DNA of 64,000 nucleotides from Octopus sinensis (taxonomy: Eukaryota), in contig NC_043006.1 of the NCBI RefSeq assembly GCF_006345805.1, positions 17,236,001 to 17,300,000 on the forward strand, read 5' to 3'. Of the stretch, positions 1-61,900 are shown in pieces (position 1 is the first letter of the stretch; each line of letters starts with the position of its first letter). The position numbers were made by a program.

Positions 1-528
1 ACAAACAAGGACAGACACACGGATTAAGTTGATAACATCAACCCCAGTGCATAACTGGTACTTAATTTATCGACCCCCAAAAGGATGAAAGGCAAAATTG
101 ACCTCGGTGGAATTTGAACTCAGAACGTAGCAGCAGACGAAATACCACTAAGCATTTCATCCGGCGTGCTAGCGTTTCTGCCAGCTTGCTGCCTTAAGTG
201 CACAACTGGTATTTCTGTCATCAAACTCTATGTCATCAATCATGAAAGGATGAAAAGCAAAGTCGATCTTGGTAGAATTTGAACTCAGAATATAATAATT
301 CTGCCATCTCACCTTATATATATATATGTTGATTCACTAGCTTCTGCACGCATTTTTTCTCTCCTTGTTTCTTTCCGTGTTTCTTTTCTGTGTATCTTTC
401 TGTTGAAGAGCGTAGGCTCGAAACGTAAAAGACTTGTTTTATTTATATTCCTGAGCGCCATACTAATACAATTGTTTGTTTGTATTCCACCTGCCTTCGT
501 CTTTTGTTTATTTTCATAAAGCTTTCCG

Positions 529-561
<33 letters not shown>

Positions 562-2158
562 ACAGCCTTTTTTCTATCAAATCGTCTCACAAGACTATGT
601 AGGCTTAAGGTGCTATGCAATAGGATTGAACCTCGAAACACTTGGTTGGGAAGCAAGTTTCTTAACCACACAGCTATGTCTGAAGATTTAGTTTTTTTTC
701 TTTTCTTTTTTTCTTTTCTTTTTATTTTAGATATTTTTAATTCTTGTGTGTTTGTGTGTGATTTTTATTTTATATCTTCATTTAATCACTATTTAAGCAT
801 CATGACCAATATCTAATTAAAAGGTCATTTAGTTAAATGTTAAATACTTTCTCTGTTTCACGTTGGAGGAAGCCAGAGAAACGTAAGTTGTAATTTTGTG
901 TGATGACATTAACTTGTTCAATGAATAAGTATTGTGAATGAAGTATTCACTCACACCAACAAGGGAACCTTAATGTGGTCAGCCAATATACTAGAAATAA
1001 TAGTAAAATCTCTCACAGATCACACCCTATCATGTTAAATAAGAAAAGGATACATAACATTATTGTACATAACTCCAAAAGCCTGCATCCTGCATTAGAC
1101 ATTACAATGCAAGGAGTACAAAAAGAATTAAATAAGATGGTCACAGCTGGATTGCCTTTTGTCATAGATTTCTTTTAGATAAGCCAAGTCTTCCACAAAT
1201 CATTATCATTGCTTTACTGTCCTCTTTTCCATATTTGCATGGGTCAGATGGACTTCATTGAGGCAGATTTTCTAGGGATGGATGAATTTTATGTTGCCAA
1301 CCCTCACTTCCAAGTAAGGTAATGGTCACTGCCTGGCTGGATATGCTTTCTTCAAAGATTGGAAACGAAGGGCACCACTTGTATGATGGTAATGCTTGCT
1401 TACAGCTACCATGCACAGTCAAGACAACACATAACACACCTTTTTTTTTACCTTCCATATACTCAGAAAACTTTCACCAGTTCGGAACTGTAACAGAAGA
1501 GAGTTGCATAAGGTACCATGCAGTGGGGCTGAACCCAAAGCCATTGGATTGCAAAGCCAAAATCTCAGGCACACACTCACACCTGCACTCCACTATGTTA
1601 AATAAAGAGAGGATACATCAGATAATGCATTCAAAGATATCCTCTAGAAAAAGGTGGAACACACATAGTTTGAAGGCCTTTGATCACAAATCTGCTTAGT
1701 CAGGGTTGAGTTAAGACTTCACAGCAAAGCAATTTGTGTTTGTATATCTAAAACGAAATAATTATATATAATGTATTTAGTTATATAAAGAGGTCTGTCG
1801 CCAGTTCAGTATTTGATCTGCATCAAAAATATGAAAAATGTAAATAGAACACACCTTTTTTAATTAACATAAGGTTTGTAATATTGTCCATTGATTACAT
1901 TAGCAATGGGAGTGTTGTCTTTGATTGACACATCTTAATTAATGCATCTTTTAAAATTAAAGTATTTGTGTAATGGTCAACATTAATTTAGTATCATCAT
2001 AAACACTGAGATGAGTTAAGAAATACTTTTCCCACCTGTATTACCACAATTTGTATTACTCATATCAGTTGAATAAATATTATTTGATGAGGGTACCTGA
2101 CCAGGTGTTAAATGTGATGAGTGCCCTTTTCTTTTGCTTGTCCACTCACTCGTGTGTG

Positions 2159-2204
<46 letters not shown>

Positions 2205-2665
2205 ATTATATATATATATACGGGTGGCACGTAAAAAGCACCCACTACACTCACGGAGTGGTTGGCGTTAGGAAGGGCATCCAGCCGTAGAAACACTGCC
2301 AGATCTGACTGGGCCTGATGAAGCCTTCCAGCTTCACAGACCCCAGTTGAACCGTCCAACCCATGCTAGCATGGAGAACGGACGCTAAATGATGATGATG
2401 ATGATATATATTGATAAAAACGGTAAGATGACAAAAGAAAGAAAGAGACCTCAATATTATGTAAATAGAAGAATTTATCTGTAAAATAATATGTGACAAT
2501 TATTCGGTAGCCAAGGTAAAACTCCGAGTTTCAGATGCCGAGGTGGAAATCCATGCCACCATCTTCAGTTATCTGGCCATCGGAAAAATGCTATGAAAAA
2601 TGACCCTTATACAAAGGGAAATTTGTATATGCATGTGTATATATTGTATATATGTATACATGTAC

Positions 2666-58451: not shown

Positions 58452-58514
<63 letters not shown>

Positions 58515-58932
58515 ACTTATATATATATAATATATATATAGGCACAGGAGTTCCGGGTTCAGTCCCACTGCGTGGCATCTTGGGCAAGTGTCTTCTGCTA
58601 TAGCCTCGGGCCGACCAATGCCTTGTGAGTGGATTTGGTTGACGGAAACTGAAAGAAGCTTGTCGTATATATGTATATATATATATGTGTGTGTGTGTCT
58701 GTGTTTGTTACCCTAGCATTGCTTGACAACCGATGCTAGTGTGTTTACGTCCCCGTCACTTAGCGGTTTGGCAAAAGAGACCGATAGAATAAGTACTGGG
58801 CTTACAAAGAATAAGCCCCGGGGTCGATTTGCTCGAATAAAGGCGGCGCTCCAGTATGACCGCAGTCAAATGACTGAAACAAGTAAAAGAGTATATATAT
58901 ATTTATATATATATATATATAATATATATATA

Positions 58933-58992
<60 letters not shown>

Positions 58993-61900
58993 TATGCATG
59001 ACTCAAGTTAGAGAAGTGGTGCGTATTACATGCAAGGTTTAGGTTTTTCAGAAGTACAGACCCCTAAAAATCCCCTGCGTATTATACTCAAGGGCAGACT
59101 ATACTCGAGGATTTACGGTATATATATATGGAATGGCATCCATTAGTCTTGAAAGACTATGGATCTGCATCTTGGATTGGATTTGGTGCTGCAAATGTGG
59201 TTGGTCGGTTGGTCATTTGTTGGTGGTTTGGTCTTCCTCTGTCTCCGTCTGTTCTCTGCTGTCTGACGTATGTGATCTTCTCTTTCCCTCAGGGTGGTAC
59301 TCAGCATCTCTCTCCAGCAGGAATGATCTTTTGCCATGTTCTTTTAGGTTTTTTTTATTCACGCTCATGGCCTAAAAAAATGCCCTTATGGCGTGTGTCT
59401 CAAAGAGTATCTGACAGCCAAGTCCAGCTCCTGGCCTTCTCATGTGGCCTATCACCTGGGCCCGGCGGAACTGTTACTACTGACAGGAGAAGTGACAAGG
59501 GCAAGTTACTGGTGCCCCAAAACCAGTGCTTTGGGTAGATGGGACCGGTTAGCCCTGGAAGGCAACCCATCTATGAGAAGGAAAACTCTGACTCCAAACC
59601 CCACTGCTTTATGGTGAAACCCATCATGGGAAATGTTTGGGGAGAAAACACTGAGGAAAAATCCAGAGCTGGACTCCTGAAGGTAGTTTGAAATTGTACT
59701 CAACCTAACTCTGGCATGGTTCGTAAGGTTGTCAAACCAGGGTATGGGGTGGGAATAAGCTCCTACATATATGCGTTAATCACATTTGGTAAAAAAGGCT
59801 TATTGATGTGTTTTGTTTCTTTTTTTTTTCCCTGACAAGATGATTGCATTGTTTTACATTATTTTATTCCCTCCAGAATAATATCAATGTTTTCTTTGAA
59901 ACATATGTTGGAAGTATAAAGATTTGAATAATGTGCGCTTAACTCCATTTCTTAATTTATATATATATATACTAGCAGTATCGCCCGGCGTTGCTCAGGT
60001 TTGTTTTGACCCTTTAGAATTGGAATTTTTGAAAAGTAAAAATTTTGCATCATGTAGCTTGTTATTCTCCTTAAGTGAACATTTTTCTGGTTGAAATACA
60101 GCGAGAAATGGCGTTACAGCAGTAAAAAGATCGTAAAAAATAGGGATTTTCATAGAAAAAAAGCACCTTTTTGATGTAAATAATTTTTAGTGTTAACATG
60201 GTCCGATTTGAATTTTATCTTCCACGGAATAAAGAGCAAGCCTTCTTCTATCATACTCTCAATTTTGGTCAACTTGCACCGCAGGGCCTCGGAGGAGATA
60301 GTGTTAGTTGAAGGCTACCAAACCTGCCATAACAGACAACTTCAGCTTTATACATATAGATATGTATGTATGTATATATGTATGTATGTATATTCATATG
60401 TATGTATATATAGTGCAGCAATAAGTTTTTGGCAGCTTTAATCCATCACCTGATTTTAATTCACAGCCGGACATCGTTTATTTTCATTTGTGTTGCTAAT
60501 GCCTTTGTCAAAGACTTGATGACTATGAAACTATCCAATTCCTTTCTTGTAAATGATCATGTCAGTGTGAAGCAGCCACATTATATTTCGTTGATAGCAC
60601 TGTACATCACCACACACTTTCTGCCATTACTTCATAGCAATTTTTTCATGATAATTTGTTATCTATTCACAATAATTTGTTATCTATACAATGACAAAAA
60701 TGTATATATGTAGTCATAGATGTTGGTATTGCTTTGAGGTTAACTTGTTCGCCTTTCCAATTACTTGGCATGTCTTCTACTATAGTCCAAAGCTGAACAA
60801 TGCCTTATGAATGAATTTGATAGACAGACATTGAAAGAAGTTCTTCACTGTGTGTATGTGTGAGCATGTGTGCATGCACACACACATGTATATATGTATG
60901 CATGTATTATATGCTTTGACAATGGATTACCTCACTGTCTGCTTTGAATACTTCTGTCTAGCCAGCTAATGGCTTACTTTAAATTGATAAGCCTCGATCC
61001 TTTATGGATCTAATGTATCTGGAAATATATATATATATATATATAGATAGATAGATAGATATGTGTGCAATAGACTGGGAGATTCTTACCTTGCCTGGAA
61101 ACAACTCGTGGTTGGCAACAGGAAGGATGTCTGACTGTAGAAAAACACTGCATTCAACATACTCTTGACTAACCCAATCAAGCATAGAAAAATAGATGGT
61201 AAAGTGAGGATGATGATGGTGGTGGTGTTGGTGGTGATGGAGGAGGTGGTAGTGGATAAGTACATGCACTTTAACGATTAAAACAATGATGTGTACATTA
61301 TGTGTAACACATTTATACTCCAAAAGATATCAGCAGACTGTCAGACACCCATGTTTCGACATGATTTTCTCTTCTCAGTGACAGGTACCAGCTCAGCTCT
61401 TAGGACTTCTATTTCTTGGAACTTCTACTTCTATTGAGGGATCAGGAAACAAGGCATTTGCTTATGTGTGCAAAAGATTGCCATGCTTAAACTTAAATTA
61501 GCATGTATGCAGGCATTAAAATAACGATGTGTTCATCATTTATAACATGACAGTCTGCTAATGTTATTTGAAGCATGTCATATAAGAAGTTGTTCTTTAG
61601 GAGTAAACCTTACAGCAAGTGCCACTCTGCATATAAATGATGTCCTATCATTACATATTTAATAGTAAAGTCAGCACTTGTAAACATAATAAACCAAGAA
61701 ATTTTAATTTATTTAACTTAAGGATGAGAATAAATCTAAATATTCAGTGCTGGTAAAAAATGGCAGGGGAGACAACTTCAATGTTTTAATGAGGTAATGT
61801 GGCCATTGCCTATGTTGTGTAACTAGCACCTATGCCGGTGGCATGTAAAAAGCAGTTTTTGAGTTTTGGGCCTCATGGAGGCAATGACAAATAACCAAGA

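What the first reader, a model, noticed from the sequence alone, without database searches (positions are those of the whole stretch)
395..61384. Several unrelated short retroelements carry hammerhead ribozymes and PLE-type insertion scars
Seen: five sequence-unrelated contexts have the hammerhead layout stem I - core - stem II - GAAA - short or palindromic stem III - UH - stem I (395; 2514; 12767/25848/25919; 11399/49277/49664; 61338). Three hammerhead insertions have 12-15 bp TSDs, three have 5' inverted segments, and a decayed PLE RT lies at 22440-23560. Established: PLE pseudo-LTRs and non-LTR retrozymes carry type I hammerheads, often minimal with a palindromic stem III thought to work as dimers, and PLE insertions often have inverted truncated segments. 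Inference: this genome hosts a diverse, high-copy set of non-autonomous ribozyme elements mobilised by PLE RT/GIY-YIG proteins. I cannot verify whether these families are already described.
Basis: partly seen in the sequence, partly recalled or inferred. Interest (0 to 1): 0.85.

Follow-up and report, generated by a model that had tools for sequence, protein, structure and literature searches.

The report
Short retroelements carrying Penelope-type minimal hammerheads
Three unrelated families of short mobile elements in this window carry the stripped-down hammerhead ribozyme motif typical of Penelope-like retrotransposons and show that group's insertion scars, which is a well-described phenomenon in animal genomes; two of the five reported sites do not hold up.

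Summary
Three of the five reported contexts are real and far beyond chance. They are 395-432, family 3 (12767, 25848, 25920) and family 4 (49664, 49277, 11399). Each has the published features of the Penelope-like-element (PLE) minimal type I hammerhead. These are the catalytic boxes, one unpaired base between A9 and G10.1, a G10.1-C11.1 pair, and a self-complementary helix III with no loop. My descriptor found 4 loci in the window, none in 100 shuffles, and at most 1 with 335 decoy box sets. Sites 2514 and 61338 fail. Only 3 of the 7 copies are intact. Family 3 carries a swapped G3-C8 core and site 395 has A6 changed to U. Rfam hammerhead models match none of them.

The target-site duplications (15, 12 and 12 bp) and the three head-to-head inverted copies are confirmed. 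In family 4, two independent insertions have an inverted arm that stops within 2 nt of the same internal point, 37 and 40 nt short of the 3' end. That matches the published PLE "tail" signature.

Family 4 also has a Pol III-like A/B-box head, so it resembles a SINE. The reverse-transcriptase relic is plausible, but no database confirmed it.

Verdict: new members of a known kind. Mobilisation by a PLE is likely but unproven, and self-cleavage is untested.

The parts
395..432 (+). Minimal hammerhead-like motif, single copy. Stem I 5 bp, core CUGUUGA (A6 to U), unpaired A, stem II 4 bp with a 4-nt loop, GAA, helix III ACGU, N17 = A.
   Evidence: Its only deviation is one core mismatch, at a normally invariant position. 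Fold z = -1.78.
329..530 (+). Putative host element of the 395 motif, about 200 bp, bounded on both sides by (TA)n.
   Evidence: Read directly from the sequence. The boundaries are inferred from the microsatellite flanks and no duplication can be resolved. The 28 nt at 487-514 resemble short inserts in (TA)n at 28873-28900 and 34047-34074 (24 of 28 each).
12748..12955 (+). Family 3 insertion, 208 bp, inside another repeat. Hammerhead at 12767-12817 with core GUGAACA (G3-C8 swap). 12-bp duplication at 12736-12747 and 12956-12967.
   Evidence: The uninterrupted (empty) site is at 55416-55632.
25730..25910 (-). Family 3 copy that reaches the family's 3' end. Intact hammerhead at 25848-25897(-).
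   Evidence: 177 of 207 positions identical to the 12754-12960 copy.
25907..26051 (+). Family 3 head-to-head partner arm. It lacks the last 56 nt of the family. Hammerhead-like at 25920-25969 with 2 of 7 stem I pairs broken. The whole palindrome sits in (TA)n/(TG)n.
   Evidence: 137 of 146 positions identical to 12754-12899.
11016..11521 (+). Family 4 insertion A. Short inverted arm at 11016-11049, A/B-box-like head from about 11050 to 11129, an unrelated nested SINE-like repeat at about 11148-11287, an (AAT/GAT)n run, a body with the decayed hammerhead at 11399-11442, and a 37-nt tail at 11485-11521. 15-bp duplication at 11001-11015 and 11522-11536.
49229..49505 (-). Family 4 insertion B, inverted arm. 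It runs from an internal point (equivalent to 49757 of the direct copy) back to the 5' end of the head. Hammerhead at 49277-49322(-) with C11.1 to U and C15.2 to U.
   Evidence: 211 of 251 positions identical to the direct copy.
49506..49797 (+). Family 4 insertion B, direct copy. Truncated head, (AAT)n, intact canonical minimal hammerhead at 49664-49709 (predicted cut between 49704 and 49705), and a 40-nt tail at 49758-49797. 12-bp duplication at 49217-49228 and 49798-49809.
22322..23532 (-). Decayed reverse-transcriptase-like relic, broken by many stops and frameshifts. The fragments are 23434-23532 (a DK-V version of the DKG motif), 23178-23288, and 22727-22894 (RT motif 4/5-like, with YLDG in place of YxDD).
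   Evidence: translations. Pfam gave 0 RT families in the 6 fragments tested here. The Atlas gave RVT_1 on 13-21% of members of the nearest clusters at a score of 0.90-0.91. The motif reading is by eye.
2495..2573 (-).
   Evidence: It fails the A15.1-U16.1 and helix II geometry. It has no other copy in the window. Fold z = -0.92.
61335..61392 (-).
   Evidence: plus a hand parse. Core CUGAGAA (G8 to A), no helix II, GAAA inside a hairpin loop. Fold z = +0.40. No other copy in the window.

Best explanation
The window holds three unrelated families of short non-coding retroelements, about 200 to 370 bp long. Each carries a Penelope-like-element (PLE) type minimal type I hammerhead 90 to 145 nt upstream of its 3' end.

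They most likely spread by using a PLE reverse transcriptase/GIY-YIG endonuclease in trans. The inferred steps are as follows. The element is transcribed; for family 4 this would be from its own Pol III-like A/B-box head. The PLE protein recognises the hammerhead-proximal 3' module. The endonuclease nicks an AT-rich or (TA)n target. Reverse transcription starts at either of two sites about 35-40 nt apart, so one arm keeps a 'tail' and the other lacks it. A second, inverted copy forms head-to-head. Repair leaves a 12-15 bp duplication.

The hammerhead has no helix III hairpin, only a self-complementary 4-6 nt stretch. It could therefore cut only as a dimer or with protein help. Its retention may owe as much to being part of the RT-binding module as to cleavage.

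Shown: the motif, the controls, the duplications, the inverted arms and the tails. Inferred: the PLE partner, Pol III transcription and any cleavage. Most copies here are decayed.
For: Motif. Four loci (three families) pass the PLE-type descriptor, against 0 of 100 shuffles. Decoy boxes gave at most 1 hit in each of 335 sets.

Published non-descriptor features. All three families show the features listed in PMC4209133 (text parts 1-2 read): a base between positions 9 and 10.1, the G10.1-C11.1 pair, and a palindromic helix III. The stems differ in sequence between families but still pair.

Family 3 core. All 3 copies share the G3-C8 swap. The engineered C3G/G8C double mutant partly restores cleavage in a PLE hammerhead (PMC11167929, section 3 part 2).

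Insertion scars. The duplications are 15, 12 and 12 bp, one with an empty site. There are three head-to-head inverted copies. In family 4, two independent insertions have inverted arms ending at equivalent points 2 nt apart, leaving tails of 37 and 40 nt. The published PLE tail is 30-40 bp at one end only, next to an inverted 5' copy (passages of PMC8557442 and PMC3846280), and is explained by two RT start sites (PMC11167929).

Targets. Two of the 5 insertion events lie in (TA)n, a target noted for PLEs (PMC8557442).

Geometry. The predicted cut lies 93 nt (family 4) and 103 nt (site 395) from the 3' end. In the anole PLE the corresponding distance is about 85-92 nt (PMC11167929).

3' ends. 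No poly(A) or simple-repeat tail is present.
Against: No Rfam hammerhead model matched. There was none at gathering score. There was none at E up to 10 in the targeted scans of 49200-49800, 11250-13000, 330-530 and 25720-26055.

Only 3 of the 7 copies are intact. Site 395 has A6 changed to U, a normally invariant position.

In family 3, the differences between copies in stem I break pairs rather than compensate. Fold z-scores are modest, at -1.4 to -2.4.

No intact PLE is in the window. The RT relic is unconfirmed and shares no sequence with the three families.

None of the families forms the partial tandems typical of PLEs. The family 3 'tail' is 56 nt, outside the 30-40 range.

Published work found that hammerhead cleavage is not needed for PLE insertion in vitro, and that minimal hammerheads cleave poorly (PMC11167929, PMC4209133).
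Confidence: 0.68

Rival explanations
1. Families 3 and 395 are not dedicated non-autonomous elements. They are 5'-truncated or solo terminal (pseudo-LTR) pieces of autonomous PLEs, which carry the hammerhead near their 3' end anyway.
For: PMC4209133 (text read) states that most genomic minimal hammerheads occur as single motifs 'probably related to truncated PLEs'. PLEs are heavily 5'-truncated on insertion (passages of PMC8557442 and PMC8969392). Neither family has a recognisable promoter head.
Against: The two independent family 3 events have 5' ends within about 6 nt of each other (12748/12754 against the palindrome centre at 25907-25912), which argues for a defined short template. Family 4 has its own head with a defined 5' end in two events. 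Nothing in the window links them to coding sequence.
Confidence: 0.22
2. These are ordinary LINE-dependent SINEs. The inverted 5' segments come from twin priming, and the hammerhead-like motifs are passengers or coincidental.
For: Duplications of 12-15 bp and 5' inversions also occur with endonuclease-dependent LINE insertion (recalled, not checked in a paper). Family 4 has an A/B-box-like head like a tRNA-derived SINE.
Against: There is no poly(A) or simple-repeat 3' tail. The two arms duplicate the same sequence rather than splitting one template. The arms end at a fixed internal point 37-40 nt from the 3' end in two independent events. The motif enrichment is specific to the hammerhead boxes.
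Confidence: 0.07
3. The motifs are chance matches found by a flexible eye.
For: This is true for 2514 and 61338. A loose one-mismatch descriptor gave 2 hits against a mean of 0.83 in 40 shuffles. A box-only descriptor gave 10 hits against a mean of 3.06.
Against: For the three families, 0 of 100 shuffles gave a hit and decoys gave at most 1 of 335 sets each, against 4 true loci. The motif recurs in independent repeat families with different stem sequences.
Confidence: 0.03

Closest known systems
Minimal type I hammerheads of Penelope-like elements (Cervera and de la Pena 2014, PMC4209133; Lunse et al. 2017, not held)
   Same: Two stems plus the catalytic boxes. An unpaired base between positions 9 and 10.1. 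The G10.1-C11.1 pair. A palindromic helix III with no loop. A short helix I (5-7 bp) and a helix II of 4-6 bp. Dispersed single motifs and nearby pairs on opposite strands. High sequence diversity between families within one genome.
   Different: None is seen here inside a pseudo-LTR of a coding PLE. Family 3 has G3-C8, whereas the papers I read report only U3-A8 as a natural covariation (PMC4209133, PMC3088659).
Sm-alpha / Sj-alpha SINE-like elements of schistosomes (as summarised in PMC6765202)
   Same: A Pol III-type promoter region followed by a hammerhead in a short non-coding retroposon. Family 4 has this order.
   Different: The schistosome motif is a canonical hammerhead with loops and a helix III, often in tandem. 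Family 4 has the minimal PLE-type motif, is dispersed, and shows PLE-type scars. Its tRNA-like head is not recognised by ARAGORN or by the Rfam tRNA model.
Metazoan non-LTR retrozymes (PMC7761336; bioRxiv 10.64898/2026.07.22.740005)
   Same: Short, non-coding, hammerhead-bearing, and proposed to depend on PLE enzymes.
   Different: Retrozymes are defined by tandem units that give circular RNAs and usually carry canonical type I hammerheads. No tandem arrangement of these families exists in the window.
PLE insertion architecture (PMC8557442, PMC3846280, PMC11167929)
   Same: An inverted 5' copy next to the direct copy, a 30-40 bp tail at one end only, short duplications (8-10 bp in the rotifer examples), and AT-rich or (TA)n targets.
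   Different: The duplications here are 12-15 bp. There are no direct pseudo-LTR partial tandems. The family 3 tail is 56 nt.

Membership tests
Hammerhead ribozyme (catalytic core) | CUGANGA box | tested here: inconclusive
   Exact in all 3 family 4 copies. GUGAACA (a paired 3/8 swap) in all 3 family 3 copies. CUGUUGA (A6 to U) at 395.
Hammerhead ribozyme (catalytic core) | GAA followed by the A15.1...U16.1 pair and a non-G at position 17 | tested here: met
   Met in 6 of 7 copies. Copy 11399 has G12 changed to A.
Hammerhead ribozyme (catalytic core) | Match to the Rfam hammerhead covariance models | tested here: not met
   No hammerhead family. In one search only the best 150 of 238 matches were listed, and none of those was a hammerhead.
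Hammerhead ribozyme (catalytic core) | Self-cleavage at the predicted site | not testable with these tools
   This needs transcription and cleavage assays, or mapping of RNA ends.
PLE-type minimal hammerhead | One unpaired base between A9 and 10.1 | tested here: met
   A, G and A in families 4, 3 and 395 respectively. The feature is listed in PMC4209133.
PLE-type minimal hammerhead | G10.1-C11.1 pair | tested here: met
   Present in 5 of 7 copies. It is lost at a CpG in copy 49277 and is unclear in the indel-affected copy 11399.
PLE-type minimal hammerhead | Palindromic helix III without a loop | tested here: met
   ACGU, AAUAUU and ACGU in the intact copies.
PLE-type minimal hammerhead | Location in the pseudo-LTR of a coding PLE | tested here: not met
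   No coding PLE adjoins any copy. There is no similarity to the surroundings of the RT relic. Most published motifs are also solitary.
PLE insertion signature | Inverted 5'-adjacent copy | tested here: met
   Three events, at 11016-11049, 49229-49505 and 25730-26051.
PLE insertion signature | 30-40 bp tail present at one end only | tested here: met
   Family 4 has tails of 37 and 40 nt in two events. Family 3 has 56 nt, outside the range (and coordinates read).
PLE insertion signature | Partial tandem (direct pseudo-LTR) | tested here: not met
   No direct tandem of any of the families.
Non-LTR retrozyme | Head-to-tail tandem units, each with a hammerhead | tested here: not met
   TRF found 21 arrays. 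Only two loci have a period of 40 or more (47742-48152 and 52484-52853), and neither holds a hammerhead family.
tRNA-derived SINE | tRNA-like head with A and B boxes | tested here: inconclusive
   An A/B-box pattern recalled from memory hits 11056-11109 and one other place, against a mean of 0.12 in 50 shuffles. ARAGORN found 0 genes. The Rfam tRNA model gave no match at E up to 10 in 11040-11135.
LINE-dependent SINE | Poly(A) or simple-repeat 3' tail abutting the duplication | tested here: not met
   The 3' ends run directly into the duplications.
Penelope-like element RT-EN | RT domain and GIY-YIG domain | tested here: inconclusive
   Pfam gave 0 RT or GIY-YIG families in the 6 fragments from this region. 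The Atlas gave a weak RVT_1 lead and nothing for the DKG-like piece. PDB gave nothing relevant. RT-like motifs are seen by eye only.

The most novel reading that the evidence does not exclude
Family 4 would be a chimeric SINE. It joins a Pol III A/B-box head to a PLE-type 3' module made of a minimal hammerhead plus two reverse-transcription start sites. That would make it a SINE that parasitises Penelope-like elements rather than LINEs. Family 3 would be a propagating family in which the hammerhead core pair is naturally swapped to G3-C8, the same change that partly rescues cleavage in engineered mutants. Neither was found described in the papers I could search and read.
Probability: 0.3. Interest if true: 0.55.

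Novelty: new member of a known kind. Interest (0 to 1): 0.35.

Why it matters
The massive, diverse occurrence of minimal hammerheads linked to Penelope-like elements in animal genomes has been known since 2014. The general claim is therefore not new.

What this locus adds is clean insertion anatomy for very short hammerhead-bearing units. It shows exact duplications, one empty site, and two independent events with the same internal arm end. This ties dispersed 'orphan' minimal hammerheads to the two-start-site mechanism recently shown in vitro for one PLE.

If the Pol III head and the G3-C8 core hold up genome-wide, they give two things. One is a natural test case for which part of the PLE 3' module is needed for trans-mobilisation. 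The other is a natural test of how much core variation a hammerhead tolerates.

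Tried and rejected
Rfam. The whole-window scan at gathering score gave only a weak tRNA match. The scan at E up to 10 was dominated by microsatellite and hairpin 'miRNA' hits (150 of 238 shown). Five targeted scans gave no hammerhead and no tRNA for the family 4 head.

My descriptors. 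The first loose descriptor admitted the 2514 minus-strand candidate. I rejected that candidate once A15.1-U16.1 and a bounded loop were required. A one-mismatch descriptor without the PLE-specific features was no better than chance: 2 hits against a mean of 0.83, one of them at 37497-37549, which I treat as chance. Level E (two mismatches) gave 63 hits, but its shuffle control crashed on an index error, so I draw nothing from it. The local parser returned nothing for 61338.

Folding and alignment. Dimer cofolding gave only trivial domain-swapped duplexes and is uninformative. The MAFFT alignment of the seven motifs was not structural, so I did not run the count of structure pairs or build a covariance model. 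The pair tally comes from explicit coordinates instead. Folding of the 3' regions gave weak structures of -4 to -6 kcal/mol for family 4, so I do not claim an AC-rich initiation stem-loop.

RT relic. Pfam on pieces, PDB and two Atlas searches gave at most a weak RT lead.

Literature searches. 'hammerhead ribozyme' with 'G3-C8' found one paper, on an engineered variant. 'hammerhead', 'C3-G8', 'natural', 'covariation' was. SINE with Penelope-like terms were. Hammerhead with octopus/cephalopod was. None of these described these families, a natural G3-C8 core, or a SINE using PLE enzymes. Lunse et al. 2017 (PMC5785218) and Pyatkov et al. 2004 (PMC522041) are not held. The supplements of PMC4209133, which hold the family alignments, are closed. 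Any of these could already contain such cases.

Not used or closed. The collections on offer (bacterial and archaeal genomes, phages, plasmids, E. coli) cannot hold relatives of a eukaryotic repeat. No other part of this genome, and no Repbase or Dfam, could be consulted.

Full report
**What the window is.** It is 64 kb with no N and 31-41% G+C. It is full of TA/TG/AAT microsatellites and short interspersed repeats. A mariner relic matches Pfam HTH_48 at E = 8e-07. This looks like an invertebrate-type eukaryotic genome. I did not try to name it.

**Checking the motif.** Rfam gave no hammerhead. At gathering score the only match was a weak tRNA at 63149-63221. At E up to 10 the listed 150 of 238 matches were microsatellite or hairpin look-alikes. 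Targeted scans of 49200-49800, 11250-13000, 330-530 and 25720-26055 listed 3, 7, 2 and 15 matches, none a hammerhead.

I therefore wrote descriptors. A canonical one used CUGANGA, an optional extra base, helix II, GAAA with A15.1-U16.1, a palindromic or hairpin helix III, a non-G at position 17, and helix I. It found 49664-49709(+) and 49277-49322(-). In 40 dinucleotide shuffles the mean was 0.025 hits, with 1 of 40 giving a hit.

I then read Cervera and de la Pena 2014 (PMC4209133, parts 1-2 of the text). That paper lists features that emerged beyond their own descriptor. These are a base between positions 9 and 10.1, the G10.1-C11.1 pair, a palindromic 15.2-16.2 stretch or loop 3, a short helix I, and natural U3-A8 covariation.

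A descriptor built on those features gave three results:
- 1 locus with the exact core (49664).
- 3 loci when any Watson-Crick 3/8 pair is allowed (adding 12767 and 25848, core GUGAACA).
- 4 loci with one core mismatch (adding 395, core CUGUUGA).

At each of these levels, 0 of 100 shuffles gave any hit.

Real DNA is richer in hairpins than shuffles are. I therefore also ran the same descriptor on the real window with decoy boxes. The 35 composition-matched decoys gave 1 hit in total. Of 300 random decoys, 4 gave one hit each and none gave more. The true boxes gave 4 loci. The enrichment is specific to the hammerhead boxes.

**The seven copies.**
- Family 4: copy 49664 is intact. It has helix I of 5 bp, CUGAUGA, an unpaired A, helix II of 5 bp plus a G-U pair, an 8-nt loop, GAA, ACGU, and U17.
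- Family 4: copy 49277(-) has lost C11.1 and C15.2 at CpG sites.
- Family 4: copy 11399 has G12 changed to A plus an indel.
- Family 3: copies 12767 and 25848(-) are intact. They have helix I of 7 bp, GUGAACA, an unpaired G, helix II of 5 bp, GAA, AAUAUU, and U17.
- Family 3: copy 25920 has two broken helix I pairs. These are not compensatory, which counts against selection on that copy.
- Site 395 is a single copy with A6 changed to U.

Monomer minimum-energy folds reproduce helices I and II, with modest z-scores of -1.38, -2.37 and -1.78. The families share no sequence outside the boxes. Their helices differ in sequence but all pair, which is the only covariation available from one window.

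**The two failures.** It has CUGAAGA, an extra U and a good hairpin. GAAA follows only after a 9-nt insert, or else the parse needs a 43-nt loop with U15.1-A16.1. Its fold z is -0.92 and there is no second copy.

But G8 is A, there is no helix II, and the fold puts GAAA in a hairpin loop. Its z is +0.40.

Loose descriptors are at chance level: 2 hits against a mean of 0.83, and 10 against 3.06 for boxes alone.

**Anatomy of family 4.** Insertion A spans 11016-11521 between 15-bp duplications at 11001-11015 and 11522-11536. Insertion B spans 49229-49797 between 12-bp duplications at 49217-49228 and 49798-49809. Each duplicated string occurs only at those two places in the window.

The unit consists of a roughly 80-nt head, an (AAT)n run, a body with the hammerhead, and a specific 3' end with no poly(A). 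In insertion A an unrelated high-copy repeat is nested at about 11148-11287.

The head of copy A matches an A-box/B-box pattern that I recalled from memory. That pattern hits only two places in the window, against a mean of 0.12 in 50 shuffles. ARAGORN and the Rfam tRNA model do not recognise the head. 'tRNA-derived' therefore stays an inference. Both events begin the unit at the same head 5' end.

Each insertion starts with an inverted copy: 34 nt in A, and 277 nt in B (reaching the head). The outer ends of both inverted arms correspond to positions 2 nt apart in the unit. The direct copies run 37 and 40 nt further.

**Anatomy of family 3.** A 208-bp insertion at 12748-12955 lies inside another repeat. 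That repeat's uninterrupted copy at 55416-55632 shows the empty site. The duplication is 12 bp. A second event at 25730-26051 is a head-to-head palindrome inside (TA)n/(TG)n. Its minus arm reaches the family's 3' end and its plus arm stops 56 nt short. The 5' ends of the two events agree within about 6 nt.

**Site 395.** The motif sits in a roughly 200-bp stretch bounded by (TA)n on both sides.

**Comparison with published PLE behaviour.** Passages of Craig et al. 2021 (PMC8557442) describe an inverted 5'-truncated copy next to the unit, a 30-40 bp tail often at only one end, hammerheads near the 3' end, and a microsatellite target bias including (TA)n.

Arkhipova et al. 2013 (PMC3846280, passages) give an example with an inverted pseudo-LTR 37 bp shorter than the direct ones, a 31-bp tail, and 8-10 bp duplications. 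They also show trans-mobilisation of unrelated sequence by terminal repeats alone.

Frangieh et al. 2024 (PMC11167929, section 3 part 2) report several findings:
- Reverse transcription starts at two internal sites whose spacing is the tail.
- Targets are AT-rich.
- The cut site lies about 85-92 nt upstream of the start site.
- The C3G/G8C double mutant partly restores cleavage.
- Cleavage needs the protein in vitro but is not needed for insertion.

The family 4 tails (37 and 40 nt) and the cut-to-end distances (93 nt in family 4, 103 nt at site 395, and 89/145 nt in family 3) fit this picture. The absence of direct partial tandems and the 56-nt family 3 tail do not.

**The RT relic.** Minus-strand fragments between 22322 and 23532 carry by eye a DK-V version of the DKG motif, a motif 2-like piece, and a motif 4/5-like piece with YLDG. 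Pfam found nothing in the 6 fragments from this region. PDB gave nothing relevant. The Atlas gave eukaryotic clusters with RVT_1 on 13-21% of members at 0.90-0.91 for one fragment and nothing for another. The relic is plausibly an RT. 'PLE' rests on recalled motif shapes. It shares no sequence with the hammerhead families.

**Mechanism and rivals.** The best reading is trans-mobilisation by PLE enzymes, at confidence about 0.68. The steps that are inferred are marked as such in the Best explanation section.

The main rival, at about 0.22, applies to families 3 and 395. It holds that they are truncated terminal pieces of coding PLEs, as PMC4209133 suggests for most solitary motifs. The shared 5' ends argue against it, but two events are few.

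LINE-dependent SINEs with twin priming (recalled concept) are unlikely. The two arms duplicate each other, they end at a fixed internal point, and there is no A-rich tail.

Chance is excluded for three contexts and accepted for two.

**Novelty.** Dispersed minimal hammerheads tied to PLEs are well known (PMC4209133, PMC7761336, PMC6765202). SINE-like elements with a Pol III promoter and a hammerhead are known from schistosomes (PMC6765202). A PLE origin of animal retrozymes was argued in a 2026 preprint (10.64898/2026.07.22.740005; abstract, section 14 and passages read). These are therefore new members of a known kind.

Two details may be new. One is a family-wide natural G3-C8 core; searches found only U3-A8 in nature and G3-C8 in engineered RNAs. 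The other is a Pol III-like head joined to a PLE-type 3' module; searches found no such description. Lunse et al. 2017, the closed supplements, and Repbase/Dfam could not be checked, and any of them may already cover both details.

Noticed in passing
11148-11287, 63858-63995, 30120-30255, 53778-53913, 30820-30932, 62034-62165, 52337-52471, 56141-56270, 54044-54180, 42712-42845, 2255-2389: A repeat of about 140 bp is present at least 11 times in 64 kb, on both strands, at 80-91% identity to the 11150-11287 copy. One copy is nested inside family 4 insertion A. It is probably the dominant SINE of this genome, and it carries no hammerhead motif.
   Followed up: partly
250-295 and 13 further places (e.g. 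27085-27129, 13371-13416, 9210-9250): A second short repeat segment of about 41-46 bp occurs many times in the window at 80-89% identity. It lies just upstream of the site 395 element.
   Followed up: no
63149-63221 (+): A tRNA-like sequence just above the Rfam gathering score (30.6 against 29 bits). ARAGORN does not call it. It also matches the recalled A/B-box pattern, so it may be the head of another SINE.
   Followed up: partly
21336-21785 (-): A mariner/Mos1-type transposase relic (Pfam HTH_48, E = 8e-07) next to TG/TC microsatellites and about 550 bp from the RT relic.
   Followed up: partly
28798-28931 and 33990-34105: A duplicated segment holds a 43-bp insert inside a (TA)n run. The first 28 nt of that insert resemble 487-514, near the 3' end of the site 395 element (24 of 28). 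It may be a tail-only or heavily 5'-truncated insertion of a related family, but the sequence is T-rich and of low complexity.
   Followed up: partly
12675-12747 + 12956-13110, 55416-55632, 54934-55136, 17308-17509: A further repeat family of about 215 bp with four copies. One of them was split by the family 3 insertion and so provides the empty-site proof.
   Followed up: partly
47742-48152 and 52484-52853: Two long-period tandem arrays (81 bp x 5.1 copies, and 63/125 bp x 5.9/3.0 copies) that are unrelated to the hammerhead families.
   Followed up: no
49720-49741, 11453-11470, 49245-49266(-): Just upstream of the inner arm end point, the family 4 copies can form a small stem with an A/C-rich loop. 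One pair appears as G-C in two copies and A-U in the third. The minimum-energy fold predicts the stem in 2 of 3 copies at only -4 to -6 kcal/mol. This is a weak lead towards the published 'AC-rich stem-loop' start site.
   Followed up: partly
49669-49747 (+): The AUG inside the family 4 hammerhead core opens a 25-codon frame that stops close to the inner arm end point. In the anole PLE the ORF starts within the hammerhead. Whether this frame is a remnant of a PLE ORF start is unknown.
   Followed up: no
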